Shown here piece by piece: positions 2,037-62,929 of a DNA stretch of 64,000 bases; position 1 is the stretch's first letter; each line of letters begins with the position of its first letter. This DNA comes from Malacoraja senta. Taxonomy: Eukaryota. The stretch lies in NCBI GenBank assembly GCA_038087875.1, contig CM075988.1:6076001-6140000 (forward strand), given 5' to 3'. The translations under genes and the position numbers were made by a program. The notes below the pieces were generated by a model. It saw only the letters and a list, made by a program, of their open reading frames with translations. It was not told the origin of the DNA and ran no database searches.

Positions 2037-2115
2037 TATCTACTGGAGACAGCATAATGCAACGGTTAGATTTAGGCACACCCCAAGATAATCCCTGCAA
2101 CAATGTCTTGAGGTT

Positions 2116-2260
2116 CACAAAAATGCTGGAGAAACTCAGCGGGTGCAGCAGCATCTATGGAGCGAAGGAAATAGGTAACGTTTCGGGCCGAAACCCTTCT
2201 TCAGACTGATAGGGGGTGGGGAGAAGAAAGGAAAAAAGGAAAAGGAGGAGGAGGAGCCCG
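2116..2260 (-). mobile_element. Short Penelope-derived element with minimal hammerhead core
   Basis: Minus strand CTGAAGA-A-GGGT-TTCG-GCCC-GAAACGTT at 2177-2204; 13-bp TSD atgtcttgaggtt at 2103-2115 and 2261-2273. Confidence 0.8.
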
Positions 2261-2286
2261 ATGTCTTGAGGTTGATGTTTATAGTT

Positions 2287-2586
2287 TTTAGAGATACAGC
2301 GCGGAAACAGGCCCTTTGGCCCACCGAGTCCGCTTCGACCAGTGATCCCGGCACATTAACACTGCCCTGCACACACTAGGGACAATTTACACATACACCA
2401 AGCCAATTAATCTACGGCTTTGGAGTGTGGGATAAAACCGAAGATCTCGGAGAAAATCTACGTGGTCACGGGGAGAACGTACAAACTCCGCACAGACAAC
2501 ACCCGTAGTCGGGATCGAACCCGGGTCTCCGGCCGCTGCAAGCGCTGTAAGGCAGCAACTCTACCGCTGCGCCACCGTTTCCGCCC
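2287..2586 (-). mobile_element. HE1-type tRNA-derived V-SINE
   Basis: Reverse complement shows A/B-box head (tggcgcagcgg..ggttcgatcc), V-domain (gtctgtgcggagtttgtacgttctccccgtg) and CR1-like tail (gggcctgtttccgcgctgtatctctaaa). Confidence 0.9.
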
Positions 2587-3644
2587 TTAATTATGTGACT
2601 GACCTTCAGCAACCATAAACGCTTTCCTTGAGTCTCTTTGTCCTTTGACCAAGGCTCCCAGGTGGCACACTTAGCAAATGTCTGCCTTGGTGTCAGAGGT
2701 AGTCCTCTCACCCCTTCTCTGGAACACAAATCTTTGGTCCATATCTGGTCCAAACTTGTAGCGGGATCTTGAGATAAGGACTCCAGGAAAATCCAAACTG
2801 GGCATCAGTGAGCGTGATATTGGTGAGCAAGTGCTACCCAATGCATTTTTGACACATCTTTGGCCACTTTGGTCAATGACTGAGAGCAGGCAGATTAAAG
2901 AGCTGAAGTGTAATTGTTCTGTTTTTTTTTGTGGGAGATTTTGGGCAAATGTCAGTGTTTTAACTGTACTGGAACCTCTAGATCATCGGAATGGCCAGTT
3001 CGAGAGCATATCGCCACACTCTGGCGGGGACGTTGTGTGATTCCTTATCCTTTTGTGTATTTAGTGCTCTCAGCTGCATCTTGATACGTGTAGAGTGGAT
3101 TGAATTGGGGGAAGGGACGCAGGAGGAAGTCAAATTATCTGCATGCTCCTTTCAGCTGAAACGGTTGCAAAATGCTTCAGTAACACCAATGTTGAGAACG
3201 GGTATATTCTTAGAGTCATTCCCACTTGTTAGCTGTTCAATTATCCACCATACTTCTTGACTGGACATGACAGGACTGCAGAGGTCTGAGCTGATCTGCA
3301 GGTTCGGTCTGCGATATTTGTCAGTGTTCCACCCCCTTTACGTCTGCTGCTTCTTCTTTAGTGGTTTCAGGTCGGATCAAGTCGAACATTGGCAGAGACT
3401 GGTTGCACTGAACAATCGTTTTGTGTTGGGAATGCCTCGTGATATGATGTGCGTCAGAGGAGAGGAAAATTTGCGACAAGCATAGATCAAGCGCATGAAA
3501 AATAACTGCTTCTGATATCTCATGCTTTGATAACGAGATATCACAGATTTAGATTGAACGTAGGAGATGGAGAATTATCTTCGCACGTAAGCAGAAAGGA
3601 ATCACATTGCTCATTTGATACGTAGGTTTGTGGAAAGAGAATTA

Positions 3645-3883
3645 AGGCCTGTCCTACTTGGGCGTCATTTGCGCGTCACGCAGGTGGCGCGCGAAGATTT
3701 TGTGAATCCCCCAAATCCTGGGGCGCCACGCACGACCGCGTATCACTGCCTACGTCACCACGCACCATGCGCGCGTAATGCATGCCATGCGCGCATCACG
3801 TGCGCGTCACGACGCATGCATCGTGGCGCGTAAATGATGTCGCGTAAATGACGCGCAAATGATGCCCAAGTGGGACAGGCCCT
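3645..3883. mobile_element. MITE, PIF/Harbinger-like
   Basis: TIRs (a)ggcctgtcctacttgggc / gcccaagtgggacaggccct, TTA flanks, CpG-rich interior; same family as 46030-46305. Confidence 0.8.
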
Positions 3884-5332: not shown

Positions 5333-5334
5333 GT

Positions 5335-7827: not shown

Positions 7828-9342
7828 ACTGGCAAAAGAAGAATGTAAATGAAATGTTGGGCTATGGGATTCGAGTGGCCACTGCTTGATATAGACCTGA
7901 CCATAGCAATGATTTGATACCTTGGATCGATTTGATTTGTAGGGAAATATCTTTCGAAGATAGACACAAAAACCTGGAGTAACTCATCAGGACAGGCAGC
8001 ATCTCTGGAGAGATGAAATGGGTGATGTTTCGGGTCGCGTCCCTTCTTCAGACCTTTCATATCTTTCATTAATTATTCAGATATGTTTATTTAAAGGCAA
8101 GGAATTTGATTGCACCATTGTTACAAACTCAAAAAAATGCCACAAAAAAAAATCAACAGATCAGTCAGCATCTGTGGAGAGAGAAGTGGCCAAGGGTTTG
8201 GCTGTGTCACCCTTCATCGGGATTTGGATGGAGTGAGATACGTTAGTTCTCAGAAGGAGAGAAGGTGGGGGGAAAAGCAAATGGAAAATCTGTTTCTGTT
8301 TGTATATCATGTTGTCTTTGTGTTTCTTATCCCACTTGTATAAGTCAGGCCAAACACGGAGGTCCCAAACTCTTATCCTTATCACACTCATCACACAGAC
8401 CAAGAAGCTTCAGGCTCTGGTAAAAGCTATTATTAAATCATTTTACAGATGCTCTCTGACTTGATAGTTAGTTAGTGCATTAGTTAGTTATTTAAGTTTA
8501 TTGTATATGTACCGAAGTAAAGTGAAAAGCTTTTGTTGCGCGCTAACCTGTCAGTGGAAGGGCTATACATGATTACAATCGAGCCATTTACAGTGTACAG
8601 ATACATGATAAAGGGAATAACGTTTAGTGCAAGAAAGTGTTGCTGTTGGAGTAGAGGTTTAAAAGAGTGGAGCGATTGTAATTAGTGATTACAGGTCCAC
8701 TTCTTTGACCAGCACACAAAGAGTCGCCGGGCTTGGGCGCCATCTTGGAATATATGGCACTTCTTGTTTTTATTTCTGACTTCCAGCCTCTGCATTATTT
8801 TTTATTGTAATTTTCTTATACTTGTTGCAAAGTATGAGTATTTTCCTAGAATTGGTTGCTATAATCAGATGGCGTAAGGTTGGCATTGACTCAGCAATCT
8901 CACAGCAAAGAGGGTTGACTGTATAGGTGTGACTATTTAATCTTTTGTAAGGTTTCTGGAGTTTGTTTGAAAGTTAGCTGACTTGACGTGCATGACTCTG
9001 ATGGATATATTATTGTTCTGGCAATCTTCAACATCGACCGGCAGTAAATTAGTATTTAGAGCACATCACTCACGAAGATTTCCTTCAAAGAGATTCAACT
9101 TTTCTCTTAATGTGGATTCAGATCTAATTCTGAGAAAATAGGACAGCTTTCACTGGTGTGAGGAAAGGTTGTGGAGCTCAGTGTGAAAGACAAAGTGTTG
9201 CAGTGACTCAGCGGGCCAGGCAGCATCTGTGGAGGGAATGTACAAGCAACGTTTCAGCTCAGGACCCTTCTTCAAACTGCCTGTGCTGCCTGACCCACTG
9301 AGTAGCTCCAGCGTTTTGTATTTCACCCTCGATTCCAGTGTT

Positions 9343-9546: not shown

Positions 9547-9547
9547 T

Positions 9548-10015: not shown

Positions 10016-10825
10016 TGGAAAGTGGCAAGATTGCCGTTTGAACGCTAGCCCAGCTCAAGGTGATGGGAGAAAAATGGAATCGGCAGCAAGTACTCAGCAG
10101 AAGAGCATCTGTGGAGAGTGAACAGAGCTAATCAAATCTCTTCGCAGATGCTGCCAGAGCCATTGAATATATTCAACATTTTCTGTATTGAATTCTGATT
10201 TCCAGCATCTGCAGTATTTTGCCTATCGGTGTGTTGAAAATCTTTTGTCTTTTGATGACTGTTCACAAATAAGGGTTGTAGACAAGAATATGCTGTTCGA
10301 CTCCTTGGAATTATCTCATTGACTACCTCAGGCTTCTCATTACTGTAATTATCTGGTACAACATTCCTTGGGTAACTTAATTAGGTAATAACCCTGATAG
10401 TCAGAAGTATCCAGTACTTGATACAACACAGGTACTGTCATCATTTATATTGCAGACATTTAATACCCTCACCATCTATTATCCAAAACCTAATCATACG
10501 ATACCCAAACTGTCCAAACCCTCTAAATCTCTAATTATCTGACACCATTCCCACACAACAATCAGCCACTGGTCTTTAATGAATGATGCTGATTCTAATA
10601 TACAAACCTAAAGCAACACAGAAGTTGCATTGGATTATCATTGCTAAAATTGTTCCTATTGTCAGCAACACCTTTACTGTTGCCGGGCTTATCCTTGTGT
10701 TCAGATACAAATCACTTTAAATTCTATCGTCTGTCTCACCTTACGTGCTTCCCTCAGTATCTTATATACACCGGTCAGAGTGAATGACCTTTCTACTTTG
10801 AAGATGCCCCTTAGTCATTTTCAAC

Positions 10826-11073: not shown

Positions 11074-11250
11074 TGATTTCCCTCATTTGTCTATTAATCA
11101 GTCAAGTGTCTTTACTATCCATGACCCCCCCATATTTCAAACTTACCTCCTAAATTCACATCTAAGTTGCTAATACATCTAACAGACAAATTATGTCCCA
11201 CCATTGACCTTTGCGGGTACACCACTGGTAATAGACATCCAATACTACCT

Positions 11251-11345
11251 ACTGAAGAAGGGTCTCGACCCGAAACGTCACCTATTCCTTCGCTCCATAG
11301 ATGCTGCCTCACCCGCTGAGTTTCTCCAGCATTTTTGTCTACCTC
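11251..11345 (+). ncRNA. Minimal type I hammerhead ribozyme motif within a Penelope-derived repeat
   Basis: CTGAAGA(11252-58)-A-GGGT-CTCG-ACCC-GAAA-CG-TC: intact core, stem II and palindromic ACGT stem III. Stem I is very weak. Confidence 0.65.
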
Positions 11346-12199
11346 CAATACCACTCTGTCACTAAATCGATATTGGATTCAATTAACCAACTTGCCTTGG
11401 ATCCCATGTACCTTGACCTTCTGGATTTGATCTTGGACTCGATCAAATGCCTTACTAAACTCCATGAAGACAACATCTATATAATGGTGGCTAATGAAGA
11501 TGCAGAAATTTCCAGCAGGACTCCAGTAATCACCTCCTTTGTTTCCTGTAGAAACCTAGGATAGATCTCATCTGGCCTGGGTTCTTATCCTGAAGTGCTT
11601 CAGTCTATCCATCTACTCCTTCCCAGACTCGTTACCCTCCATCTTCTTCACCTTGGTGAATACAGACCAGAAGTATTCATTTAATACCTTGTTACATCCC
11701 TGGATCAATACATAGACTGCTCATTTAGACTATAAAGGGACCAGAGCTCCCCTCACCTCTTTCTACCACCTATCTCCCTTCTGCTCCAGTCTTGAAGAAG
11801 GTTTCTAGCACAAAACATTTTATGTTCACTTTCCACCTCTAATGTTACCTGACCCACTGAGTCCATCAAATATTTAGTTTTTTGTGCAAGATTTCAGCAT
11901 TTGCAGTCTTTTGTGCTTCCTTTTTGTTCTTGATCAAACCGTTAACGTTCTATGTCATTGAAGGTTCTCTGACCTTGCAATCTTTACCTTTCATCCTTAC
12001 TGAAACATGCTGATGCTGACCTCTTAATAACTCACTCTTAAAAGACTCACACTAATCGGATGGCATTTTACTCACACCTATCTCCACCCAGTCCATTTTC
12101 ATCGTCCTCAACGCTATTAAAGCAGCCTTTTCTCCAAATTAGTTTCCTACAAGCTGAAACCAAGCAGGACGGGCATCACTGGACAAGCTCAATGCTCAC

Positions 12200-17330: not shown

Positions 17331-17377
17331 GTAAGTAACTAACATCCTGCTCGCACATAAATTGCTTTCAGAACTAA

Positions 17378-18890: not shown

Positions 18891-18940
18891 GTAAGTACAT
18901 CACCTTACTTGTGCCTTGGAGTGCCAGACTGTATATTTTC

Positions 18941-21324: not shown

Positions 21325-21503
21325 GTGCAGGAAGGAACTGCAGATGCTGGTTTAAACCGAAGATAGACACAAAAAGCTGGAGTAACTCAGCAGGACAGGC
21401 AGCATCTCTGTCTAAAGAAGGGTCTCGACCCGAAACGTCAACCATTCCTTCTCTCCAGAGATGCTGCCTGTCCTGCTGAGTTACTCCAGAATTTTTGTGT
21501 CTA
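21325..21503. mobile_element. Penelope-derived short element with inverted arrangement
   Basis: gacacaaaaagctggagtaactcagcaggacaggcagcatctctg is mirrored by cagagatgctgcctgtcctgctgagttactccag..gtgtc around a degenerate hammerhead core. Confidence 0.8.
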
Positions 21504-21825
21504 ACGTCTTGTACTTAATGGTCAGCGTGGACATGGTGAGCCAAAGGGTCCGTTTCTTTACTGCATAATTCTATAACTATAACTCCTTGATATAGGTTTG
21601 GCACCTATAAAAGAGGTCTGTAAAGATTTTATACAAATCACAAATATGATTGAAGGGACCTACCTGTAAAGGAGAAGCATTGTGCAGATGTAATTATTTT
21701 AAAGGATCAGTTGAAGGGAAGGCTGGAGCTCTGCATGGGTATTTTTGTGCCTGACGCTGAGTTGAAATGTTGCCAATGAATAGAGATGGTCTTAACTCTC
21801 ACCTTGCTTTCCACCAACCTCCTAG

Positions 21826-22111: not shown

Positions 22112-22377
22112 GGGCAGCACAGTGACGCAGCGGTAGAGTTGCTGCCTTAAAACACCAGGGACCCGGGTTCAATCCTGACCTCGGGCACTGTCTGTGTGGA
22201 GTTTGCATGTTCTCCCTATGACTGCGTGGGTTTCCTTCGGGTTCTCCAGTTTCCTCCCACATCCCAAAGACGTGCGTGTTTGGGACGTGGGTGGAATTAG
22301 TGTACTGATTGCTGGTCGGTGCGGACTCAGTGGTTGAAGGACCTGTTCCCACACTGCATCTCTAAACTAAACTAAAA
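22112..22377 (+). mobile_element. HE1-type V-SINE
   Basis: tRNA head, V-domain, (CTAAA)n tail. Confidence 0.85.
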
Positions 22378-22633
22378 TACTGGAGGAAGTCATCGGGTCA
22401 GACAGCATCCGAGGAGGGAATGGGCAGACAAAGTTTTGGATCAGAACCTTTCTTTAGTCTGAAGAAGAGTCCGGCCCAAAGCATTGTCTGTCCATTCCTT
22501 CCCCAGATGCTGCCTGACCCGTTGAGTTCCTCCAGCACTTTGTGTTTTGCTGGTAATCCCAGATCCTGTAGTTTCTTGTGTCTCAGCTCCTATCTAGCTC
22601 TGTGTGGGAAAAGTCCGTAACACGTTCTCTCAG

Positions 22634-23706: not shown

Positions 23707-23738
23707 AATGTGTTAACAGTTTTACTCTAAACCTGCAG

Positions 23739-31515: not shown

Positions 31516-31702
31516 CCATTACTGAATGACTCATCCATTGCAAGAAAACTGAGCTAAGTGGCTGGTTGACAAGTCTGAGAATAAAGAGAATTGATTTAAT
31601 TCATTAATGTCTCAATCAACTACTGTAACTTCTTTAGGTGGAAGAAAGTCAGGGTATTGAGACGAAAACGTCTCTGAGAAAGTCAGGTATATTGGGACAA
31701 AA

Positions 31703-32285: not shown

Positions 32286-32364
32286 ACAGGGGCATAGAGG
32301 TTGTGACATCATGTTGCAGTTGTACAAGACGTTCATGAGGCTACACACGTTGAGCTGGTGCCTT

Positions 32365-43049: not shown

Positions 43050-44170
43050 TTACATAGGCTGGTTAAAATAACAGACAGGTGGCAGGACTGATAGTTGACC
43101 TGACCCATTCCTTCCCTCCAGAGATGCTGCCTGTCCCGTTGACTTACTCCAGCATTTTGTGTCAATCTTTGGTTTAAACAGCATCTGCAGTTCTTCCTGC
43201 ACAGGACTGATAGTTGGTTGGACATGTGGTCAGCTGGTTGATTGGTAGTCAGTTGGTTGAACTGGTATTCAGTTGGTTGGACTGGTAGTTAGTTGGTTGG
43301 ACTGGTAGGCAGTTGTTTGGACTGGTAGTTAGTTGGACTGGTAGTTAGTTGGACTGGAAGTTAGTTGGACTGGTAGTTAGTTGGACTGGAAGTTAGTTTG
43401 GACTGGTAGTTCGTTGTACTGATAGTCATTTGGTTGGATTGATGTATGAAAGGATTGGCTGTCGATGTCTGCCAGTGGAAACCAAGTCTCATTCTGCCCA
43501 GTGCATTATCTGTTTCAGATTATTATTAAGAGCTGATAATTTGAACTTGTTCCCTGCAATTGGCATAAGGTTGAGTTTCCAGGAATTTTCTGCCGGATAG
43601 AACTGGTGATAAATAAAATAAGATATAAACCCTTGGCCATCCAAGGACCTGCATGAGCAATGTACAAAAATAACAGAACAGAGGTTTACAAACAGCCAGT
43701 ACATTCTTAGTCCCCCCCCCCCTGGCCATTCCCAGGATATTTTTGGTGGTCAGACCCGGGTCTTCACCACCCAATGCCCTGAATGAGGATATTTGAGCAG
43801 GGAAAGTCCCATAGAATTCCTAGGGTTTAGCCACTATGGGTCCTATCACCACCTACAGACTGGTGCAGAACAAAGTCAACCTCTTACAGTATATTGACAC
43901 AATAAAACAGTTAGCGGAAGGTAAAGGGGAAAAGGTCGAGGACTCTTTGATAAAGACAGACACCAACAGCGATACCTTTTTTATAAGACTGGAGGGTGGC
44001 TAATGTATTGCCTCTGGTTAAGAAGACTGCTTAGAAAGCCATTGGGACTATAGACCAGTAACACCTGTGGTAGGAAAGTTACTACAAAGGATTCTAAGAG
44101 ATAAGATATACATATCAAAGGCAGGAGTTGAATAGGTAAAGACAGTGTGGCTTTGTGCTTGGGAGAATGT

Positions 44171-44654: not shown

Positions 44655-46029
44655 AACGTCTCACAAATTTGATTGAGTTTTCTGAAGAAGTAACCAAGAA
44701 GGTTGATGGGGCAGTTCTGTAGACATTGTCTACATAGAAGATAGACACAAAATCTCGCCCTGAAACTTCACGCATTCCTTCTATCCAGAGGTACTGCCTG
44801 TCCCGCTGAGTTACAGCAGCATTTGCGTCTTTCTTCAGTGTAAATCAGCACCTGCAGTTCCTCGACACACATTTTGTCTACATAGACTTCAGCAAGACGT
44901 TCGATAAGGTTCCACAGAGTAGGGCTGCTCCTGGAAGGTTGGATGAGAGGAATGGATAGGGTGAATGTACACTGTTTTTTTTCTCAGGGTTGGCGAATCA
45001 AGAACTAGGGGGGCATACATTTAAGGTGAAAGGGGAACGTGTTTAATAGGAACCTGAGGAGCAACCCTTTCACAAGATGGTGGTGCGTACATGGAACAAG
45101 TTGCCCGAAGAGAGTCTCGACCCGAAACATCACCCATTCAGAGTCTGAAGAAGGGTCTCGACCTGAAACGTCACCCATTCCTTCTCTCCAGAGGTGCTAT
45201 CTGTCCCGCTGAGTTACTCCAGCATTTTGTGTCTACCTTCGATTTAAACCAGCATCTGCAGTTCTTTCCCACACAAGTTGCCAGAAGTAGTTGAGGCAGC
45301 TACAATAGCAACATTTAAAAGATATTTGGACATGTACACTGATAGGAAAAAAAAGAGAGGGATCTGGGCCAAACGCGGGCAAGGGGGGACTAGGATGGAA
45401 TGGAGCAATTGGTCACCATGGATGAGTTGGGCTGAAGAGCCTGTTTTCAATGCAGTAGAACCCGATGACTCTATAAAGATTAACACCAACAAATTATGTT
45501 TTATGGAGAAAGGCACTTTATGGAGCCTTAGTGGTTCCTTATGCAGAGTCAGACCCACTCTCAAGAGAGTCTTTTCTTGCAAGTGGGTCAGCAATAACGT
45601 GTTTATGTAAAGGGAGAGATGTTTTTAATTGTAAATACTCACGAATAATAAGGAGCGAATTAGGAGGCTGGACATGTCTATTTGGGTTATACATCATGGA
45701 AACAGGCCCTTCGGCCCAACATGTCCATGCAGACTGGGTGTTATAACTGAGCTACTCTGTTTGCGTGCATATGGTCGTCGCGCTCTAAACCATTGCTATC
45801 CATGTACATATCTAAATGTACTCTCTCTCAACAGCCTCCTCTGGCAGCTTGTTTCCGCAGCCTGCATGAAAAATATTGCTCCTCTGGTTCAGTTCCGTTT
45901 CCCTTAGAGATTAGTTTAGAGATACAGCATGGAAACAGGCCCTTCGGCCCTCTGAGTCCATACTGACCATCCATCACAAAGAGTGATTGCTGCCCATTCT
46001 ATTCAGAGGTAGATTCTACAAGAAACTTA

Positions 46030-46305: not shown

Positions 46306-47828
46306 TTACTAACACTCTGTGATTCCTCAAAACGCCTGTGAAGGACGGAAGTGGAACATAAAAATGTACAGCACAGGAACAGGCCCTTCGGCCCACAACG
46401 TCCCTGCCGAACAGGATGTCAGGTTAAGTTAATCTCCTCTGCCTGCGCCTGCTCCTTGTTCCTCCACTACCTGCATATCCATGTACAATGTCACTGTTGT
46501 ATCTGCCTCCACCAACACCCCCGGCAATGCAAATATTTAAATTTTGTAGTGTAATAGTAGCCAAACCCAGCAACAAGGAACTGCAGATGCAGGTTTACAC
46601 AAAAGGACACAAAGTGTTGGAGTAACTCAACAGGTCAGGCATCATCTCCGGAGAACATGGATAGGTGACGTTTCCTCAGTCTGAAGAAACCGACCCGGAA
46701 TCGTGATCTATCCATGTTCTTCAAACATTCTGCTTGACAGGTGTCAGAGGTATGGGGAGAAGGCAGGAGAATGGGATTAGGAGGGAGAGATAGATCAGTC
46801 ATGATTGAATGGCGGAGTAGACTTGATGGGCCAAATGATCTAATTCTACTCCAATTTCCTTATGACCTTTGACCAGTTGGGTTACTCCAGCATTTTGTGC
46901 CCAGTTGCCAAGCTAGAATATTGGGAAGAACTTTCTCATCAAGCATAAGAAGGTTGATATTTTACACCAGTCAGTGAGTGAGTAAGAGAGTTATCACAAT
47001 ATTCTTCTTTATTGGGAAGAGAACTGTTGGGAAGAGAGCCTGTTTCCACGCTGCATCTCTAAACTAAACTAAACTAAACTTAACTAAACTGAACTGAATA
47101 CAAAGTAAGGAGGTAATGCCTCATTTGGATATAGTCTGGGTGGCACCACACTGAAAGACTGTACACAGTATTAGTCTCTCGATTAATGGAAGGATATCAA
47201 TGCATTGGAGGCAGTTCAGAGGAAGTTTACTCAATGTACTTGGCTTATGGAAAAGGTTGGACAGGCTCAACTCGTATCTACTGGAATTCATAGAGTGAAA
47301 GGGGCCTAAAATATATAAGATCCTGACAGGGCAGATGTGGGGAGGACTTATCCACTTGCAGGAGTACCTAGAACAAGGACTTGCTGTTTAAAAATAACCC
47401 TAACTCTAACTCCTTTTTTGACAGTTTAATTTAGTTTAGAGATAAAGCAAGCAAACTGGCCCTTTGGCCCACCGAGTCCATGCCAACCATCAATCACCCG
47501 TTCACACATAGTTCTTTGTTATCCCACTTTTAGGCCCATTCCCGACACACTAGGGGCAATATAATGTGGAATAAAATGGAACAGCACTTTCTGGTTCATA
47601 CCAAAGATAGACACACAATCTGGAGGAACTCTGCTGATTAGGCAGCACCTCTGGAGAAAATGGATAAGTGATGTGAAGAAAGGTTTCGGCCCGAACGTTG
47701 CCTATCTCCTTCGCTCCATAGATGCTTCTGCACCCGCTGAGTTTCTCCAGCACTTTTGTGTACCTTCAATTTTCCAGCATCTGCAGTTCCTTCTTTAACA
47801 CAAGTGATGTTTCAGGTTGGGACCCTTC

Positions 47829-48124
47829 TTAAGGATAAGGGGGAGATCCTTTAAGACCGAGATGAGAAAAACATTTTTCACACAGAGAGTGGTGAATCTC
47901 TGGAACTCTCTGCCACAGAGGGTAGTTGAGGCCAGTTCATTGGCTATATTTAAGAGGGAGTTAGATGTGGCCCTTGTGGCTAAAGGGATCAGGGGGTATG
48001 GAGAGAAGGCAGGTACGGGATACTGAGTTGATGATCAGCCATGATCATATTGAATGGCGGTGCAGGCTCGAAGGGCTGAATGGCCTACTCCTGCACCTAT
48101 TTTCTATGTATCTATGTATCTATG
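47829..48124 (+). mobile_element. Young CR1 3' fragment
   Basis: LRIRGRSFKTEMRKTFFTQRVVNLWNSLP..GYGEKAGTGY plus CR1 3'UTR and (CTATGTAT)n. Confidence 0.9.
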
Positions 48125-51100
48125 ATAACCCAGGACCAAGGCTGAACCAGAGGTATGTCAGTGTAGACCTTGGCATATGACCCAAACCTGCTTGCTCTTC
48201 CACCACACAAAAACCTCGAGTGTCCTTCCACTCTCCAGTGCCCCATCCTTCAGCACGCTCTGGGGAGATCAGGCTAATTAGACCGCGTGAGCCCGAGTCA
48301 TGACGTCTTCTGACATCGCTGCTGAGAAAGGGACAGAGGAAGACAGTGTGGTGGAGAGCGGGGGTTTAGCTGCACCTGTCATGCCTGATTCACACACCTG
48401 GACTAATTCCAGGGTCTCTGTCATCTTCCGTTATCACTTATTCATGACGTGGTCAGCACCTGAACTCAGGGCCTTGCGCACAGAAAAATGATTCTCACTT
48501 CCCTCCTTGCAGTCTGTCCACTTCAGGATCATGTTCCATTTTGAGTTCAGTCTTGGAATACAATCACTACTAGAAATGCATCATGTAGCCTCTCTCCGTC
48601 TCACTCTTCCTCCTGCACTTTCCTTTCTATTTCTTCTCAGGGTGTGGATGCCACTGGCAAAGTTAATGAAAAATATTTGCTTCTGAGCTAGTTTGCTTGA
48701 TGATTAAAGAAGGGTGTTCAGAAGGGCGACACGGTGGCGCCTCACAGCGCCAGGGACCCGGGTTCCATCCTGACTACGGGTGCCGTCTGTAGGGAGTTTG
48801 TACATTCTTCCTGTTCCCCGTCCGCCAAGCCTACGGGTCAGGTCTTCACAATCGCAGGAGTGAAATGAGAGCATGGTCAAATTGGTGTGGGTCCTTGATG
48901 AAGCTGGCTGCCTTTTTTTGAGGCAGCATCTCCTGTAGATTCCTTCAATAGCGGAATTGAATTGAATTGAATTTCTTTATTTGTCATTCAAAAGCAAGTT
49001 TGAACGAAATGTCATTATCATGCAGTCATAACAGTAAAAAAGCAACAAAACACACAATGAACACAATTTAACACAAACATCCATCACAGTGACTCTCCTC
49101 CAGACGCCTCCTCACTGTGATGGAAGGGAAAATCTTATCTCTTCCTTGCTTCTTCTCCCGTGGTCAGGCAGCAAACTGCTGCGTCGAGGTGATCGTGGCT
49201 CCCGATATTGAAGCCCCCGCCGGGCGATGGAAGATCCCGCGGCCGATTGTAAGCCGCGCCGGGCGACGAAAGGCCCTGCGAACGGGCCGATTCAAGCCTT
49301 GCGATCAGTACCCGTGATGGAACAGGCAATGCCCCCACTTTGTGTAGGCTGCTTCATTCCTGGGCTATCGAGTTGCCGAACCAGGCCGTGATGCCTCCTC
49401 CATTGTTCCCTGCATTGCAATGAATTTCATTAACCACTACACTGTATAATTTTGAAAGATCTCATATAAATGCAGGTCCCGACTCTCTACTTTCTGATTC
49501 AAATCCTGGATAAACATTGGCCTCTGAATTTTTTATGCTTGGGATTTTTTTATTTCCTTAGAGCAGTACGCACCTTTAGAGAGATCCTGATTGAAAAGAA
49601 GGCATTTATTGTTTGCAACTTAAGTGGAGCGCTGCTGAAAAAGACTATGACTAAACAGAAACAGATGAAGCACTTAGGGCATGAAGATATGTGGCGATGT
49701 CAGGAAACCCCAGCACATTTCGTCACGGGGCAATGAGAGGATAGCTGATGATGAGAGTTGATGCATTTAATGGCGGAGGTGAAGGTGAATATACAAAACT
49801 TTTCCCGATGTCGAAACAAGGAACTGCAGATGCTGGTTATTACACACAAGGGCACAAAGTGCTGGAGTAACTCAGCAGGTCAGGCAGTATCTCTGGAGAA
49901 CATGAGTGGCTATCTGACACCAGAACACAACTGTTGCCTCATTAAATATCTCACACTGACCCAAGCTCCCAGAGAGGAAAGTTAAAATCTTTTTCCATAC
50001 TCGGGATATTAAAACTGAGAGCGCATAGGTTTAAGATGAGTGTAAGGAGTTGAGGGGTAAGTTTTTTTACACACAGAGTATGGTTAATATCTGAAACCAG
50101 CTACCAATGAATTTAATTACATTGACGTTAAAGATCCAGCATGGAAACAGGTCCGTTGGCTCACCAATTTCCACGGCGACCATCGATCACCCCTTCACAC
50201 TAGTTCTATGTTATCCCACTTTCTCGTCCATTCCTTACACACTGGGGACAATTTACAGAGGGCCAATTAACCAACAGACCCACGCATCTTCTGATGTAGG
50301 AGGAAGCCAGAGCACCCGGAGGAAACACACGCGATCACAGGGGAACGGGCAAACTCCACACAGACAGCACACAAGATCATGAATTGAAAGCGGGTCTCTG
50401 ATGCTGCACCACTGTGGCATCCTTAATGTGGTGGCATAATTAGCTGCAATTATTACATTGAGGAGACATTTAGATTGGCAGTTAGAATTATATGATCGTA
50501 ACATAGGCAAGTTGAAAGGTTGGCATAGACAGGATGGGTTAAATGGACGGTTTCTATGCTGTACAACTCTATTACTCAATGTAGACACAAAGAACAGCAG
50601 ATGCTGGTTTACACCAAAGATAGACACAGAGTAACTCAGCAGGTCAGACAGCATCTCTGGAGAGAAAGGATGGGTGGTATTTTGAGCTTGGACCCTTCTT
50701 CAGACAGAAGATTCTGTAAGCCATTATGACCAGTACAGCAAATCAGTCAGAATGCATGTGGCAGAATCGAATGTGTGAAATCGGTAATGCTGGTGCAATG
50801 ACCGTACCAGCAGGACATTCGAGTGACTTTCATCCCCGCAAGCCAGCTACTGCCTGAACTCTGGGGGCAGGACCACTGCCCCGTCCCGAACAACTGCACC
50901 GGAATTTCCTGAAACCCCCATAGATCAAGTAACCATTTCTCTTCCAGAATCAATACTTCTGTCACTAATAAATCAAAGTAGTCTGAGAATGATAGCTGAA
51001 GCACCCTACATGCTTTGGCTAAATACAAGATGCTGGAGTAACTCAGCGGGCCATGCAGCATCTGTGGAGAAAAGGAATAGGTGACGTTTTGGATCGAGAC

Positions 51101-52969
51101 CCCTCTTTAGACTCTGGCATCTGCATTTCCTTCCCACACATGCTTTGGCTGACTTGATAACATCATATGGTTAATGAGCATGGACGCAGACCCTTCAGCC
51201 CATCGTGTCCATTCTAACCACCAATCATCCATTTACACTACATATTTTATTTTCCTCACACTCCCATCTTCCCAATTCTACCACTTACTCACAAACAAAA
51301 AGACATTTACACTGGCCAATTAACCTGCCAGCCTGCACTTTTTTAGGGGTGAAGGTTTCATTCATTGTTCCTCATATCTCCTTATGTGGTTGATGGTTGG
51401 TGTATGGAACAGGCTGCCAGAGGAGGTCGTTGAGGCAGGTACTATAACAGTATGTAACAGACACTTGGACAGGCACATGGATAGGAACGTGCAGGAGAAA
51501 TGGGCCAAACACGGGCAAATGGGACTTGCTTCGATGGCAGAACTTGGTCGGCATGGAGGAGTTAGGCCGAGCTCCTATTTCTGTGCTGTTTCACTATGAT
51601 TCCAGGTTCAGGAACAGCTTCTTCCCTACAGACATCAGGCTATTAAACACTACAACCATTAAGCTCTGAACTGCAACGACCGGCCCCTCAGGTTTCCTCC
51701 CACACTCCAAAGACATACAGGTTTGTAGGTTAGACACAAAAAGCTGGAGTAACTCAGCGGGACAGGCAGCATCTCTGGAGAAAAAGAATGGGTGACATTC
51801 TTCAGTCTCGACCCGAAACATCACCCATTCTTTCTCTCCAGAGATGCTGCCTGTCCCGCTGAGTTACTCCAGCTTTTTGTGTCTACCTTCAGTTTAAACC
51901 AGCATCTGCAGCTCCTTCCAACACAGGTTTGGAGGTTAATCAGCTTCGATAAAATTGTCCCTAGTGTGTAGGATAGTGCTGGTGAATGGAGTGATCGCTG
52001 GTCGGCACAGACTCGGTGGGCCGAAGGATATGTTTCCCCGCTGTATCTCTAAAGTCTAAAGTAATCTCTAAAGTAAAGTCCTCTTATCCTGGCTGGTGGG
52101 GTTGTGGGATAAGTTAACAATCGTAAATCTGGAAGAATAGATTACTTGCCCCTGTAAAATCCCATCAGTGTGTGTTGGACATTGAGTTGTTGAATAATCC
52201 ATTTTGCCTGATCATTGAATGGTCAATGAAAATGACATCCACATATTCGGAAGAGGGTTCCGCTGAACACACTCTCTTTAGAATAAATTTTTGAATTGTC
52301 TCTGTTGCTGTTTGTAATATCTGCACAATGGCATGGTGGAAATAAATAATTTCATACTCATACTCATAATCATACTTTATTAGCCATGTATGTTTTGCAA
52401 CATACGAGGAATTTGATTAGCCATACAAATACTAATAAAAAGCAACAGAACACACAAAATACATTTTAACATAAACATCCACCACAGTGACTCCTCCACA
52501 TTCCTCACTGTGATGGAAGGCGAAGAAAAGTTCAATCTCTCCCTTCTTTGTCCTCCAGCGGTCGGGGGCCTCGAGCCTTCCGTTGACGGGACGATCTTAC
52601 TCCCGTAGCCGGCGGCGGGCTTCCTCGTCGGGGCGATCAAGCTCATGCATCGGGGGGGATCTCAGCTCCTCCTCGCCGGGCGATCTCCCTCGAGTCGGGG
52701 CTGGTCGACGTCGTGCGGCTTCCAGAGCTTCCCGACTCGGTCTCTTACCCGAGACTGCGAGCTCCTTGATGTTAAAGTCCGCAGGAGCGTCGATCCCAGG
52801 CAAGGGATCGGCTCCGGTGGTAAGTCCACATCCCCGTGGTGGGGCTTGAAGTCAGTCCAGAGCAAGTCTTCCACCTCCACGATGTTAGGCCGCAGAACAA
52901 CCAGAGATACGATCCGGAAAACAATCACATCTCCAGCAAGGTTAGAGAATGAAAAACAAGTTTGCCCAG

Positions 52970-53070: not shown

Positions 53071-56059
53071 ACATAAAACAAACCGGAGAACATTAACACA
53101 AACTTTTAAAACACACTAAAAATAGACAAAAGAAAGACGAAAAGGACAGACAGACTGTAGGCGATGCTGCCATCGAAGCCCCACCTGGTGGTATTTCTTG
53201 AAGTACTGAAGGCTAAAACTGCAGGGGCAACAAGGAAATGCTAGCCATTGGAATCATGTTTGGAGAGGGGCGATAGGTTTGGAGCCCCCTGTCTTGTTGT
53301 GGTCCCTTTCCCCTATCAAGCCCATAACTTCAGCCCCCACAAGGTTCTGATTAGCCTTTCACCCTGCAGAGACTTGCTATGGAGTTTGGCTGTGGATTGG
53401 TGCTATCAAGCAACCAGAACCACAGGCCAACAAGCATATGTAATGCCTGTGGCCTCCTCAATTGGAAACAGATTTCTGTTCCCTGGTTCCTCTGATACAT
53501 AGAGTCCAAATGAAGTTTTAACCCCTTTCTTCTCCGTCTCACTCCAATTGTTTGTTTATTGAAGCAGGTTAAAGTAAAGTCAACTGGTTCTCTTGCTCTC
53601 TCTGTTTATCCTGGTGAGGTTAACGCCTTATAAAGGTGCCTTCAACACAAAGACCCTTTCCGCTATTTCCCTTGGAGCAATGGATTTACCCTCAACGGTC
53701 ACGGAGGGGCATAATTACAAGGTAAGGGGTAGTCTATTAAGGCTAAGGCTCGTCGGAATTCCTTCTCAGAGGGTGATGAATCTCTGATGGTCTCAACCCC
53801 GGAGGTTGTGGAGGTAGGATCTTTGGAGGTACATGAAGAGGAGGTAGATAATCTTCTGAAGCTAGCACCATGGCGCAGCGTTGGAGTTGCTGCCTTACAG
53901 CGCCAAAGACCTAGGTTTGATCCTGACTACGGGTCCTGTCTGCATGGAGTTTGTATGTTCTCCCCATGACCTTGTGGGTTTTCTCTGGGTGCTCTGGTTT
54001 CCTCCCACACTCCAAAGACGTGCAGGTTTGTAGCCTAATTGGCTTTGGTAAAAATTGTAATTTGTCCCCAGTGTGTAGGATGGTACAAGTGTTCGGGGAT
54101 TGCTGGTCGCTACGGACTTGTTGGGCCCAAGAGCCTGTTTCCTTGCTGGATCTCTAAATTGAACTAAACCAAACTAAACTTGGGTAACACAGGACTCTGG
54201 GGGACTGGTCGAGAGGAAGAGTTGAGACTTTGGACAGATTAATCTCGATCACACTGAATGGTGGGGCAGCCCTGAGGGGCACAGTAACCTACTCCTGCTC
54301 CTATTTTCTTGAGCTCCTGTGTGATTATGGTACAAAACATCGAACGGTACAGCATAGGAACAGGCCTTTCAGTTCACGATGATTGTGTCAAACCTGGTGC
54401 CTATGTCTGAAGAAGGATCTCGACTCAAAACGTCATCCATTCCTTCTCTCCAGAAATGCTGCCTGTTCCGCTGAGCTACTCCAGCTTTTTGTGTCTATCT
54501 TCGGTTTAAACCAGCATCTGCAGTTCTTTCCTACACATGCCTATTAAACTAATCCCTTCTGCCTGCACTTGATCCATATCCCACCATTCCCTGTATATCC
54601 ATGAGCCTATCTAAAAGCCTCTTAAACACCACTATTGTGAGAGAGCCACTGTATCTGCTGGCAACACTGTCCCTGGCAACGCATTCCAGGTATCCACCAC
54701 TCTTTGTGTAAAAATCCTGCCCCACACTTCTCCTTACATTCTCTCCCACTCAGTTCAAGTTCGAGTGAGTTTATTGTCATGATAGGACAATGAAATTCTT
54801 GCTTTGCTTCAGCACAACAGAACATAGAAGGCATTGACTACAATGCCCTCCATCCTGGGAAATGTGTCCTGACTGTGTAACGATGTGTTTGATCGCTCCA
54901 CCCTGAGAGAGCACCTGTGAAGATGCTTCTACGCGTAGTCAGCATGTGTGGAGTGCAAAAGATGGAGTTGAAACACGACTATGAACCCAATCTTCTTGAT
55001 TAGCGAGGGTGTCAAAGGTTACGGGGAGAAGGCAGGAGAATGGGGTTGAGAGGGAAAAATAGATCAAATAGCCATGATCAAATGGCGGAGCAGACCCGAT
55101 GGGCCAAATGGGATCATTCTGTTCCTATGTATTATGAGCTTATGAATCGATGATAAGCTCTGAGGTAAAATGGAAACTGGAGAGCAGACACATTCCTTCT
55201 CTCCAGAGATGCTGCCTCACCTGCTGTTACTCCAGCATTTTGTATCTGCTTTCGATTTTACCAGCATCTGCAGTTCCTTTTTACACATGGAAACTGAAGT
55301 AGTCTCCATGGAACCCTCTGTCGATGGTAAAAGCATGTAAAAGCTTGTAGCCAACAAACCTGCAAATAAGTTGTCAGCCTCAAACACTTGCATCAGTCAG
55401 AAGCACAGTGTTCCTGAATCAGAAACTTACAGGGCTCTCTTATTTAATTTAGTTTAGTTTAGTTTATTGTCATGTGTACCGAGGTACAGTGAAAAGCTTT
55501 TTTTGAGTGTTAACCAGTCAGCGGAAAGTCAATACATGATTACAATCGAGCCATTTACATTGTATAGACACATGATAAGGGAGTAACGTTTTAGTGCAAT
55601 AAGGTTTAGTCTTATCCATGTCGTAACCCAGTTGAGTGCAATATTGAGGAATTGCTCAAACTTTTAAATGGACGTCTCATCTGTTCTCCCAGCTCGATAT
55701 TAATGTTGGTAACTGAAGAAAAGTGGACAATGTGTCAGAAGGAACTGCAACCGAAGATAGACACAAAATGCTGGAGTAACTCAGCGGGACAGGCAGCATC
55801 TCTGGAAAGAAGGAAGGAAGGGGTGATGTTTTGAGTCGAGACCCTTCTTCAGACCTTCAGAGAAGTGGAAAATGTTCTTGCGTGATCTCTGATATTTTTA
55901 CTCCCCAGTAAACAATACCAGAATGCTTATTTGTGCATTTTGTATTCTCCAATTTGGCTGCTGCAGTTCTGGCAGCGTGACAGTCACTGTTATACTTGGA
56001 CCATTCTGACCATATGAGTGTTTTATAACTGATCACAGCTGCTGAGAGTTGAATCCACC

Positions 56060-56663
56060 TAACCTCAGGCAGTGATCCACTGAGTACATGCCCCAATCAG
56101 CATCAACGGTGCCAAAGTGGAAATGAGTGAGAGTTACAAGTTCCTAGGCGTGAATATCACCAAGTCTGTTGCCGTCCAACCAATGGAGGAAACGACAGCT
56201 AAAATATCACACCAACACCTCTGCTTCCTCAGGAGGCTGAGAAAATTTGGCATGTCTCTAACAGCTCTTACGAACTTCTACAGATGCACCACAGAAAGCA
56301 AACTAGCGGGTTACCTCATGGCTTGGTTTGGGAACACCTCCACACAAGTTCAGACTGTTGTGCATGAAGCCCATGTACATCGCACAGACCAGTCTCCATC
56401 TACCCGTGACGCAGCCTCGGGAAAGCAGCCGACATAAGCAAAGACTTGTCCCACCCCAATCATTGGTTGACAAAAATGCTGGAGAAACTCAGCGGGTGAG
56501 GCAGCATCTATGGAGCGAAGGAATGGGTGACGTTTCGGGTCGAGACCCTTCTTCAGACTGAATGTTCCAGCATCTGCAGTTCCTTCTTAAACACCACCCC
56601 AATCATTCCTTCTTCTCCTTACTCTAATTAGGCAAGAATTTAATTTAATTTAATTTAGTTTGG

Positions 56664-56695
<32 letters not shown>

Positions 56696-58645: not shown

Positions 58646-58727
58646 TGAGCTCGGAAAATGAAACCTCAGTGGTCTGATGGAGCAGTGTGAAAGGGGTAAG
58701 TATTAGTGTGTGTGCCTCCTGTGACTA

Positions 58728-60830: not shown

Positions 60831-61408
60831 CTCTTTACTCTACTAGATGGGACATTATCGGTTTAGTTTAGAGATACAGCTGGTTCTGCGCTGTATCTCT
60901 AAACTAGATTTAACTAAGCGAAACTAAACTAACTAAACTAAACTAAAACTAATCAGTCTGAGGAAGGGTCTCGACCCGAAACATTACCCATTCCTTCTCT
61001 CCAGAGATGCTGCCTGTCGAGTTACTCCAGCATTTTGTGTCAACCTTAAGCTAAACTAAACTGTCCCTGCTGACCAGGTTGACATTCTGTGCTAACCCCA
61101 TATCCCCTAAACCTTCCTCTCCACATTCCTGTCAAGTTTATCAAGACTGTTTTGTAGGTTCACCGCTGAGATGTTGCAGGTGACCTGCTTTCTCCATCGT
61201 GGAGAGAAACATAAGGACAGCCAGTGTCCACGTGCCCTGGTACTGCCTCCAGCGGCCGGGTCTGATCCTCATTTCTGGAGCAGTCTGTGTGGAGATTTCC
61301 TTTCCAGATGCCCCCCCCCCCCTGCATTATCCCAAAAACATGCATTGAGGTGTGGCAATAGTTTGCTGTAAAATGGCCACAAGTGTGGAGGTGAGTGGTA
61401 GACTCTGG

Positions 61409-62122
61409 CAGGCATGGAACTCGCTATCAAAATATGGAGGGGACCGGAGGACAGGGGGGACACATGCGCACACTCACACACACGTGCGCGAGGCTCCGGA
61501 GGCTCAATCCAGCGCTAAATGCAGCTCAACTCTGCCTGTCTCGCCGAGTTAACCTACAGCCCTGCCTGAACTGACGGGACACCAGCGCTGCTTCTCCGCG
61601 CTGGCCATATTTCCCACAAGCCCAGGCAGGTTCACCTGGCGGGACAGGCAGAGTTGAGCTGGGTTTAGCGCTGCTTCTCTGCGCTGGCTGTGGGCCTGGG
61701 GGCGCCGCGCCCGTTAGACTCCCGACCTCTCTGGCCACCCGTGGAGGGGGGCACTCGGGTGGGGACGGGACAGGGCCGGAGACCCGGCCGGGATCGATCC
61801 TGGCTGCGGATGAGGCACAGGTCTGTGCCACGTCTCCCTCCTCCAATCACCGCGCTCTATCCTCAGTCCCACCCCCCCCACTCCTCCCTCCTCCAATCAT
61901 CGCGTTGAATCATCATGTCCCGCCCCATTGCCTGCTGACCGACGTCTCTCTCGTCCAATCGGCGCCCTCGATCAGCAGTCCCACCTCCACTGTCTCGCGG
62001 AAAGAGGAGATTTCACCGGGTTTTAAAATCCGGAATACAAAAACTTGGGGGGGATGTCCCCCACCTCTCAAAACATGGGTGGGGACGTGTCCCCTCTGGC
62101 CCCCCCGGGTTTTCCGCCCCTG
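61409..62122. mobile_element. 714-bp GC-rich non-autonomous hAT-like DNA transposon
   Basis: 8-bp TSD gactctgg (61401-08 and 62123-30); CAG..CTG ends with imperfect TIR caggcatggaa / ttccgcccctg; subterminal ggggac / gtcccc motifs. Confidence 0.78.
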
Positions 62123-62399
62123 GACTCTGGGGGGAGCTGATGGGAATGTGGGCAGAATAACAAGATTTATGTGAAGGACGAGTGCACATGGGTGATTGAT
62201 GGACAGCATGAACTCGATGGGCCGATGGGCCAGTTTCCATGCTTTAAAGGTTACGACTTTATGCTTGGGGATTGGAGCCTGTGCAGGGGTTAGGATTCAG
62301 TCAGAGCTCCAATTATTAGGTTTTAGCAAGAGACAAAGTGATTGTAACGTTATGCAACGTAATTCATGGTGTCAACAGGGGCAGCCCAGTGCAGAGGGG

Positions 62400-62716
62400 G
62401 GGGCACAGTGGCACAGTGGGTAAACTTGCTTCCTCACAGCGCCAGGGACCCGGGTTCGATCCTGACTATGGGTGCTGTCTGTACGGAGTTTTACGTTCTC
62501 CTCATGACCTGCGTGGGTTTCCTCCGGGTGTTCCAGATTTCTCTCTCATTCCAAAGACGTGCTGGTTTGTAGCTTAATTGGCCTCTGTAAATTGCCCCTG
62601 GTGTGCAGGATGTAAAAGTGGGTAACATGGAACGAGTGTTTGGGTGATGAACTCGGTGTGCCGAAGGGCCTGTTTCCAAACTGTTTCTCTCAACCAAACT
62701 AAACTAAACTAAACTA
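62400..62716 (+). mobile_element. HE1-type V-SINE
   Basis: tRNA head, V-domain, (CTAAA)n tail. Confidence 0.88.
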
Positions 62717-62929
62717 ACCTGTTGGTTGAACAAGAAGTGTTGGAGTGATCCAGCGGGCCAAGCAGCATCTCTGGAGGACGTGGGTAGGTGACGTTTTGGG
62801 TCGGGACCCTTCTTCAGACTTGTGATGTTGGTCCTCCAGAGACACCACCCAACCTACAGCACTTGGTGTTCTATCCAAGATTCCAGCATCATCAGTATCT
62901 CCATCTCAACTGTTGGTGTTGTCCTCAGT

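What the first reader, a model, noticed from the sequence alone, without database searches (positions are those of the whole stretch)
2103..62820. Dense family of short, TSD-flanked, hammerhead-bearing Penelope derivatives (retrozyme/SINE-like system)
Seen: about twenty 100-200 bp copies of one module, gtCTGAAGA-A-GGGT-CTCG-ACCC-GAAACGTC-acccattcc..agatgctgcc..tactccagc..cagcatctgcagtt. Examples lie at 2177, 8020, 11252, 21413, 27620, 37560, 41950, 45145, 54407, 56529, 60958 and 62790. Several inserts have clean duplicated flanks: atgtcttgaggtt (2103/2261), caggactgatagttg (43083/43202), acaagttgcc (~45097/45273), acaggtttg.aggtta (~51717/51924) and ccaccccaatcatt (~56451/56593). Stem II varies compatibly (GGGT-CTCG-ACCC vs GGGT-TTCG-GCCC). 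The same module ends the GIY-YIG-coding fragment at 31703-32285. Known: Penelope-like elements carry minimal type I hammerheads with a palindromic stem III that can cleave as dimers, and an extra base after CUGANGA is tolerated. Inference: these are ribozyme-processed, non-autonomous RNAs mobilised by a PLE RT, seeding self-cleaving motifs through introns at about one per 3 kb.
Basis: partly seen in the sequence, partly recalled or inferred. Interest (0 to 1): 0.78.

Follow-up and report, generated by a model that had tools for sequence, protein, structure and literature searches.

The report
Penelope end-pieces carrying uncut minimal hammerheads
This short, very abundant repeat is real and carries a minimal hammerhead-ribozyme motif, but its copies keep the ribozyme uncut and decay like neutral DNA, so they are likely leftover end-pieces of a Penelope-type jumping gene, a known kind of element, and not a new self-cleaving RNA system.

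Summary
In detail: 42 matches at about 35 loci, 0 in a reversed control; TSDs at 14 of 36 loci against 1 of 60 in a null; about 125,000 contigs per DNA run lie on one copy. The anatomy is that of Penelope pseudo-LTRs: a minimal hammerhead, an optional ~36-nt 3' tail and inverted head-to-head pairs. 'Ribozyme-processed retrozyme' is not supported. 21 of 42 copies begin 0-5 nt upstream of the core, at most 3 near the cleavage site. There are no tandem arrays. Only 5 of 24 core-spanning copies are intact, stem I has 2 bp, and the catalytic G12 is lost in 10 of 28. The core is conserved between source lineages (p=1e-7) but not within copies (p=0.31). Best reading: Penelope RT primes internally at two sites of an uncleaved RNA and likely runs off its 5' end at a transcription start. 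Two insertions look twin-primed on one RNA. The GIY-YIG identity of 32161-32291 rests on recall, not on a tool hit, and 'introns' is unverified. This scan already noted the same kind of motif in three shark windows.

The parts
2103..2273 (-). Copy with 13-bp TSD; runs ~50 nt upstream into pyrimidine-rich parent sequence; ends without tail (site A); core intact; TTCG/GCCC variant
7947..8067 (-). Copy with 9-bp TSD; 5' end at the core edge; site A end
8150..8219 (-). Old degenerate copy
9185..9324 (.). Head-to-head pair, neither arm with a full tail
10136..10215 (+). Old 5'-truncated copy with tail
11235..11354 (+). Copy with intact core; 11-bp TSD (1 mismatch); site A end
11788..11907 (+). Old copy with pyrimidine-rich upstream run-on and tail
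21325..21507 (.). Head-to-head pair, one arm with tail (B), one without (A)
22363..22585 (.). Head-to-head pair joined at the core's 5' edge; arms are each other's nearest copy; A/B ends (tail degenerate)
27549..27746 (.). Head-to-head pair centred on TCAGACTGA; arms share rare variants; one arm has an intact core; A/A ends
31699..32295 (-). Longest copy: frameshifted coding remnant (32161-32291), ~370-nt pyrimidine-rich 3' region, then the module; core decayed
   Evidence: endonuclease identity recalled, not tool-confirmed
31852..31908 (+). Tail-only insertion (27 nt) with 15-bp TSD, nested in the long copy
37491..37591 (-). Copy with 5' end at the core edge; site A end
37824..37957 (+). Old copy with pyrimidine-rich upstream run-on (weak 27-nt match to the long copy's 3' region, E 0.06-0.09)
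38281..38314 (+). Fragment
38350..38565 (.). Head-to-head pair with 11-13-bp TSD; arms share rare variants; A/B ends
38601..38627 (+). Tail-like fragment (weak, E 0.012)
41467..41496 (-). Tail fragment
41903..41979 (-). Copy starting at TCAGT; 3' part missing
43083..43216 (+). 5'-truncated copy with tail and 15-bp TSD; starts 0-5 nt from the cleavage site (ambiguous)
44726..44886 (.). 14-nt inverted site-A end plus sense copy with tail; 13-bp TSD
45096..45282 (+). 36-nt partial duplication plus full copy with tail; intact core; 10-bp TSD
46570..46738 (.). Head-to-head pair, one arm with tail, the other cut short
46870..46906 (+). Fragment
47578..47833 (-). Older copy split by a nested insertion
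47666..47810 (+). Nested copy with tail and 9-bp TSD; TTCG/GCCC variant
49813..49911 (-). 5'-truncated copy with tail; starts a few nt 3' of the cleavage site
50584..50706 (-). Copy from core edge to tail
51008..51150 (.). Inverted module (5' end to site A) joined to a sense tail, no overlap; 13-bp TSD; twin-priming pattern
51717..51938 (.). Head-to-head pair with 16-bp TSD; arms share rare variants; A/B ends
54398..54544 (+). Full unit 54405-54537 (133 nt) from GTCTGAAG to tail end; 7-bp TSD (at chance level); used for the read lay
55170..55296 (+). Copy starting at the cleavage site after 8 other letters; tail; 10-bp TSD
55721..55875 (-). Copy with partly deleted tail; 13-bp TSD (1 mismatch)
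56451..56607 (.). Inverted module (5' end to site A, intact core) joined to a sense tail, no overlap; 14-bp TSD; twin-priming pattern
60915..61062 (+). Copy starting at ATCAGT inside a simple-repeat tail; site A end
62720..62832 (-). Copy from core edge to site A; 7-bp TSD (at chance level)

Best explanation
These repeats have the layout of Penelope pseudo-LTR-plus-tail fragments, likely made when the element's RT-endonuclease primes internally on an uncleaved RNA and copies about 100-135 nt to a fixed 5' end that is likely the transcription start. Steps: (1, inferred) a Penelope-like element is transcribed from an initiator-like TCAGT just 5' of the hammerhead core; (2, inferred, TSDs shown) the endonuclease makes staggered nicks 7-16 bp apart; (3, ends shown, priming inferred from the anole element) RT starts at one of two internal sites about 36 nt apart, site A before the tail and site B at its end; (4, shown) copies stop at the same place 0-5 nt upstream of C3 or are truncated earlier; (5, inferred) priming of both nicked strands on one RNA gives the inverted pairs; (6, shown) the inserted hammerhead then decays at the neutral rate while the core stays conserved between source lineages, so any ribozyme function would lie in the parent element.
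For: 3' ends fall in two classes, 16 with tail and 20 without of 36 scorable hits (one of the 20 has a partly deleted tail). Genome-wide, loose ends pile behind 54536-54538 (3,505 contigs in X1, 4,376 in X3) with unrelated sequence beyond (agreement about 0.34). A 30-40-bp optional tail, inverted 5'-truncated copies and TSDs are described for PLEs (PMC8557442, PMC3846280). In the anole element the tail lies between two internal RT starts, both strands are cut and extended, and hammerhead cleavage is not needed (PMC11167929). 27 of 42 hits start at model column 10 or less; 21 start at columns 3-8 with unrelated flank, TSD or an inverted arm upstream, 4 run on into pyrimidine-rich parent sequence, 1 is interrupted and 1 starts at column 10. 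At 56451 and 51008 the inverted arm and the sense tail cover adjacent, non-overlapping parts of the RNA, which fold-back copying cannot produce. In 4 of 7 head-to-head pairs the partner arm is the nearest of 30-33 copies. Rare variants are as frequent in the core as downstream (7/249 vs 81/1848, p=0.31), shared variants are not (3/249 vs 186/1848, p=1e-7). G12 is changed to A in 10 of 28 copies. A Penelope pLTR holds an internal promoter and TSS (PMC2377424) and an Inr-like TCACT is reported in a rotifer pLTR.
Against: No RT or full ORF was found in the window and no genome is held; the coding remnant got no tool confirmation. No raw RNA reads were available, so the TSS is not shown. In D. virilis the place equivalent to this boundary is the 3' end of an intron, with the TSS about 120 nt further upstream, and here too the site reads as pyrimidine tract plus CAG. 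In 3 of 7 pairs the partner arm is not the nearest copy (ranks 3, 9, 22). A/B arm pairing is 7 of 9 scorable two-arm insertions, not significant alone. None of 9 full-5' copies of the commonest subfamily (assigned by eye) runs on upstream, against 5 of 17 others (p=0.13), which leaves a separate short master open. The loop II CpG decayed in only 3 of 28 copies, against 30-50% at three other CpGs.
Confidence: 0.52

Rival explanations
1. A self-propagating non-autonomous short element (SINE-like solo pLTR): short copies are themselves transcribed from the internal promoter and re-copied in trans by a Penelope RT, whose internal priming regenerates the same 135-nt unit without any ribozyme cleavage.
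For: About 125,000 contigs per DNA run on one copy; fixed 5' and 3' ends; 0 of 9 full-5' copies of the commonest subfamily run on upstream; paired arms share rare variants, which points to many source loci; non-autonomous pLTR-forming PLEs are known in algae (PMC8557442) and pLTRs acted in trans in a rotifer.
Against: The anole protein needed RNA reaching ORF position 172, beyond the main RT start at 111-118, and solo copies stop at the tail end; the 0 of 9 contrast is not significant (p=0.13); other subfamilies have long copies in the window (2107, 11788, 31699, 37908).
Confidence: 0.2
2. Same Penelope fragments, but the fixed 5' end is set by something other than a transcription start: an RT stop, fold-back or endonuclease cut at the quasi-palindrome TCAG-N-CTGA, or the 3' splice site that overlaps it.
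For: The pairs at 27645 and 22456 invert exactly at this quasi-palindrome; palindromes at inverted junctions were read as self-priming in rotifer PLEs (PMC3846280); upstream pyrimidine fraction is 0.84-0.92 in three run-on copies, followed by CAG or CAT; the D. virilis intron ends at helix I.
Against: Simple one-arm insertions (54404, 55750, 7953, 62723) end at the same place without any fold-back; several copies keep unspliced TCAG and no common exon-like sequence precedes the core; the non-overlapping arms at 56451 and 51008 need two priming events.
Confidence: 0.2
3. One reading: ribozyme-processed retrozyme RNAs, cut out by dimeric hammerheads and perhaps circularised, are retrotransposed by a Penelope RT.
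For: The motif has the minimal-hammerhead hallmarks and a core conserved between lineages; 1 clear and 2 doubtful copies start near the cleavage site; animal retrozymes derive from PLE pLTRs and occur in the one chondrichthyan sampled (bioRxiv 2026.07.22.740005); one contig joins the tail end to about the cleavage site (table 5c).
Against: 21 of 42 copies keep the core at their 5' end; no tandem arrays; no permuted copies in the window; stem I is 2 bp and the predicted fold buries the core in another hairpin (stem I pair probability at most 0.0002 in 5 copies); 1-3 of about 14 internal 5' ends near one site is within chance; 8 of 9 tested frog retrozyme dimers did not cleave.
Confidence: 0.06

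Closest known systems
[quoted passage not shown]
   Same: CUGANGA and GAAA core, extra base before stem II, G10.1-C11.1, palindromic 15.2-16.2 with no loop III; mostly solo copies spread through the genome, some as close opposite-strand pairs (100-700 bp in that paper).
   Different: Stem I is 2 bp (4-5 bp in the S. mansoni families of that paper, 2 bp in D. virilis); stem II is 4 bp; copy density is much higher than the 2,000-9,000 motifs per genome reported there.
Poseidon element PAc of the green anole (Frangieh et al. 2024, PMC11167929)
   Same: Two internal 3' end points bounding a tail, AC-rich start site, insertions formed from both strands, hammerhead left uncut.
   Different: Here seen as genomic products only; no ORF or RT was found; 4 of 12 tail junctions share ACA with the target, whereas PAc initiation was described as not homologous to the cut DNA.
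Penelope of D. virilis and Pen families of Adineta vaga (PMC2377424, PMC3846280)
   Same: Inverted pLTRs, optional 31-34-bp tail, 8-10-bp TSDs, palindrome at the inverted junction, internal promoter or Inr-like motif, solo pLTRs.
   Different: There solo pLTRs were few and often lacked TSDs; here they are the dominant, TSD-flanked form with a fixed 5' end.
Animal non-LTR retrozymes (PMC7229834; bioRxiv 2026.07.22.740005)
   Same: Non-coding, PLE-related, type I hammerhead, very high copy number possible.
   Different: Retrozymes are head-to-tail tandem repeats with a hammerhead in each unit and make circles; these copies are dispersed singles and head-to-head pairs.

Membership tests
PLE minimal type I hammerhead | Core CUGANGA...GAAA with NUH after a palindromic 15.2-16.2 pair | tested here: met
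   Majority letters at all 11 core columns; 301/325 cells; complete in 5 of 24 copies
PLE minimal type I hammerhead | [quoted passage not shown] | tested here: met
   A at column 13 in 26 of 28; first stem II pair G-C in 14 of 21 cells, 17 of 21 paired
PLE minimal type I hammerhead | Helix I of 4-5 bp | tested here: not met
   2-bp run in the four copies that have any; the D. virilis variant also has 2 bp
PLE minimal type I hammerhead | Covariation of stem pairs | tested here: inconclusive
   84% of cells pair but no measure exceeds shuffles; copies are decayed
PLE minimal type I hammerhead | Self-cleavage as dimer or with protein | not testable with these tools
   Needs in vitro assay
Rfam hammerhead families | Covariance-model hit | tested here: not met
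   No hammerhead family among 14 matches at E<=1; minimal forms are expected to be missed
EN+ Penelope-like element | Optional 30-40-bp 3' tail | tested here: met
   16 of 36 hits with and 20 without a ~36-nt tail; sharp end at 54536-54538
EN+ Penelope-like element | Inverted 5'-truncated copy next to the insertion, tail at one end only | tested here: met
   10 two-arm insertions; 7 of 9 scorable have the tail on one arm, 2 on neither, 0 on both
EN+ Penelope-like element | Variable short TSD | tested here: met
   14 of 36 loci vs 1 of 60 null
EN+ Penelope-like element | ORF with telomerase-like RT and C-terminal GIY-YIG endonuclease | tested here: inconclusive
   Only a ~45-codon frameshifted remnant; no hit; the one hit is an unrelated repeat protein; no RT motifs in the window
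EN+ Penelope-like element | Internal promoter and TSS in the pLTR | not testable with these tools
   Only contigs were offered
Animal non-LTR retrozyme | Tandem repeat with a complete hammerhead in at least two consecutive units | tested here: not met
   None of 39 tandem-repeat rows is the module; one 36-nt partial duplication at 45105; head-to-tail joints in 1-4 contigs per run among the 15 of 155 joints shown
Animal non-LTR retrozyme | Unit ends defined by the cleavage site | tested here: not met
   At most 3 of 42 5' ends near the site; 21 at the core's 5' edge
Animal non-LTR retrozyme | Monomer circular RNA | not testable with these tools
   No raw RNA reads
SINE | Own source genes independent of the autonomous partner's transcript | tested here: inconclusive
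   0 of 9 vs 5 of 17 run-on copies, p=0.13
SINE | Pol III promoter from tRNA, 5S or 7SL | not tested
   No dedicated test; the Rfam scan showed no such RNA over the module

The most novel reading that the evidence does not exclude
A solo pseudo-LTR is a self-sufficient 135-nt retroelement: an internal start at its 5' edge and internal, twin-primed RT initiation at its 3' edge (aided by 3-nt TGT:ACA pairing, telomerase-like) regenerate the unit with no poly(A), no Pol III promoter and no ribozyme cut. Its roughly 10^5 genomic copies would then be a natural record of the Penelope integration mechanism.
Probability: 0.2. Interest if true: 0.6.

Novelty: new member of a known kind. Interest (0 to 1): 0.3.

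Why it matters
As a ribozyme finding it is ordinary: solo minimal hammerheads from Penelope elements were described in 2014. Its value is mechanistic. How Penelope elements form tails and inverted repeats is still open, and these very short, very numerous insertions show both ends, the TSD and the junction in 150-220 bp. A genome-wide tally could test twin priming at two internal sites, primer-template microhomology and the meaning of the fixed 5' end without any bench work.

Tried and rejected
No whole genome was held, so counts are for the window plus one read lay. Rfam scan: no hammerhead hit; the 14 weak matches include hairpins from the inverted pairs and are not memberships. Endonuclease confirmation failed in five ways: word searches, Pfam, phmmer over 1.84 billion proteins, whose single hit P0001 is a repetitive protein with no Pfam family, and the ESM Atlas; short frameshifted queries make these blanks weak. 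Pattern scans of metagenome and viral contigs found nothing. No RNA holder was listed; X15 and X18 are only guessed RNA, so nothing is said on expression. Loose ends before 54405 (466 in X1, 643 in X3) are not independent proof of the 5' boundary, because longer copies are clipped there too. Loose ends before 54487 were rejected as a junction hot spot: their letters continue the module. An extra G before the 5' end in 4 copies (a possible cap trace) is within chance. Supplement searches for the family found nothing (one file of PMC4209133 was not searched; bioRxiv supplements are closed and may list this family for the one chondrichthyan sampled). Lunse et al. 2017 on dimer cleavage was not held and is recalled only. 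A covariance model was not built. Repbase and Dfam could not be searched.
Full report
Observation. A profile HMM built from 14 window copies finds 42 matches at E<0.01 and none in the reversed window. They lie 21 on each strand and, with tail matches, cover 6% of the window at about 35 loci. A TSD score of 9 or more occurs at 14 of 36 loci and in 1 of 60 mismatched-flank pairs; 7-8-bp matches are at chance level. Laying public contigs on 54340-54600 at 82% likeness placed 127,918 contigs of run X1 and 124,569 of X3 (contigs, not copies), and runs labelled as three organisms (A, C, D) hold the module. That the host is a cartilaginous fish is my inference from recalled repeat content; no call names it.

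The motif. Read as RNA, the head of the module is a minimal type I hammerhead: CUGAAGA, one extra A, a 4-bp stem II, GAAA, a C-G palindrome and GUC, the hallmarks listed in PMC4209133 (parts 1-2 of 4 read). Rfam does not detect it. Stem I has only 2 bp, and in five copies the predicted fold pairs the core with the downstream CCCAUUCCUUC-like stretch, leaving stem I at probability 0.0002 or less. Stem pairs form in 84% of cells but covariation does not exceed shuffles; the GCCC variant is a one-sided change in two copies. Only 5 of 24 core-spanning copies are complete.

Selection. Among 32 copies of 60 nt or more, variants seen in at most two copies are as common in the non-CpG core as downstream (7/249 vs 81/1848, p=0.31), while variants shared by three or more are rare in the core (3/249 vs 186/1848, p=1e-7). 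G12 sits in a CpG and is changed to A in 10 of 28 copies; the stem III CpG decayed in 11 of 31, a downstream control in 9 of 30, and the loop II CpG in only 3 of 28. The contig lay gives a similar picture (stem III CpG 22% and 32% changed, control 23% and 24%, depth-weighted). I read this as selection on the source elements and none on the inserts. The cut-off of two copies is arbitrary and HMM detection favours conserved copies.

5' ends. 27 of 42 hits start at model column 10 or less. 21 start at columns 3-8 with flank, TSD or an inverted arm upstream; four run on into pyrimidine-rich parent sequence, one is interrupted and one starts at column 10. The long copy at 31699-32295 shows that the parent extends at least 500 nt further, so the boundary is not just the edge of my model. 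Hammerhead cleavage would give 5' ends at column 34 and remove the core. One copy starts there (55188) and two doubtfully (43098, 49851), within chance for about 14 internal ends. No tandem array of the module is among 39 tandem-repeat rows, and head-to-tail joints have 1-4 contigs per run among the 15 of 155 joints shown. Tandem units are what define animal retrozymes (PMC7229834, passages; bioRxiv 2026.07.22.740005, parts 1-3 of 5).

3' ends and architecture. Of 36 scorable hits, 16 carry a ~36-nt tail ending in ACAC(A) and 20 stop before it. Genome-wide the tail end is sharp, at 54536-54538, with unrelated sequence beyond. Ten insertions have two head-to-head arms; of nine scorable, seven have the tail on one arm, two on neither, none on both. 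These are the described PLE features (PMC8557442, PMC3846280, PMC8969392; passages). In the anole element the tail lies between two internal RT starts, both strands are cut and extended, ribozyme mutants insert normally and no reads end at the cleavage site (PMC11167929, parts 1-2 of 4). At 56451 and 51008 the inverted arm covers the RNA from its 5' end to site A and the sense arm covers only the tail, which fits two primers on one RNA and not fold-back copying. In 4 of 7 pairs the partner arm is the nearest copy in the window, in three it is not (the nested pair at 47674, a control, ranks 26 of 30). At 4 of 12 tail junctions the last three letters ACA are also in the target (p=8e-5 against ACA frequency; post hoc, and 44873 would be a fifth by eye).

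The partner. The remnant at 32161-32291 reads in two frames and looks to me like the last part of a Penelope endonuclease, but that is recall: five searches did not confirm it, and no PLE RT motif is in the window. PLE membership therefore rests on the non-coding anatomy. No host exon was found among 112 of 198 frames scanned, so the intron claim is open.

Mechanism. Most likely these are direct products of a Penelope RT-endonuclease working on the 5' end of uncleaved element RNA: internal priming at A and/or B, run-off at a fixed 5' end, TSD from staggered nicks. What fixes the 5' end is inferred. TCAGT is initiator-like and Penelope has an internal promoter (PMC2377424, sections 14 and 18), but in D. 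virilis this position is an intron end, and the site is also a quasi-palindrome. An independent short element cannot be excluded.

Novelty. Solo minimal hammerheads from PLEs, including opposite-strand pairs, are in print. Seven literature searches (judged from listings and abstracts) showed no description of this family or of twin priming in PLEs, but Repbase, Dfam, subscription journals and bioRxiv supplements were not visible. Three earlier notes of this scan reached a similar verdict on other (shark) DNA; I saw them after forming my reading and they are not independent support. Verdict: new member of a known kind, with moderate value as a record of Penelope integration.

Noticed in passing
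window:54501-54537 (read lay): The best-supported joint is tail-to-tail: the module up to 54501/54502 joined to the opposite strand from 54535-54537, in 43 contigs of X1 and 31 of X3. It could be insertion into older copies at site A, beside the palindrome GGTTTAAACC, or a derived repeat. Unexplained; no example in the window.
   Followed up: no
window:31852-31908: A 27-nt tail-only insertion with a perfect 15-bp TSD, nested in the long copy's 3' region.
   Followed up: partly
window:45096, 51008, 51717, 55733 (and 44723 by eye): The tail's last three letters ACA coincide with the first letters of the target duplication, suggesting primer-template pairing or a TGT cut preference.
   Followed up: partly
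module columns 7-45, e.g. window:11252-11295: A predicted hairpin pairs the hammerhead core with the sequence just after the cleavage site (-8 to -10.5 kcal/mol against about -4 for the ribozyme fold), a possible off state that protein binding could relieve.
   Followed up: partly
module columns 20-21: The loop II CpG decayed in 3 of 28 copies, against 30-50% at three other CpGs.
   Followed up: no
window:5000-7750, 12550-15450, 32380-34200, 58700-60300: Large, fairly young LINE copies (RVT_1, E 1e-28 for 5943-7214; CR1-like by recall), 77-97% alike over 300-nt blocks.
   Followed up: no
window:17382-18135, 22116, 24032, 34299, 35629, 53864, 62403: A second abundant short family (families D3, D5, D15, D19), often ending in AAACT repeats; probably a tRNA-derived SINE (recall). 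Several module copies sit in or beside it.
   Followed up: no
window:27150-27850: The inverted pair at 27549-27746 lies in a GC-rich stretch and is flanked by GGGACAGGCCC/CCAAGTGGGAC-type sequences that recur at about 3560-3730, 43030 and 44000-44400, perhaps a MITE-like family.
   Followed up: no
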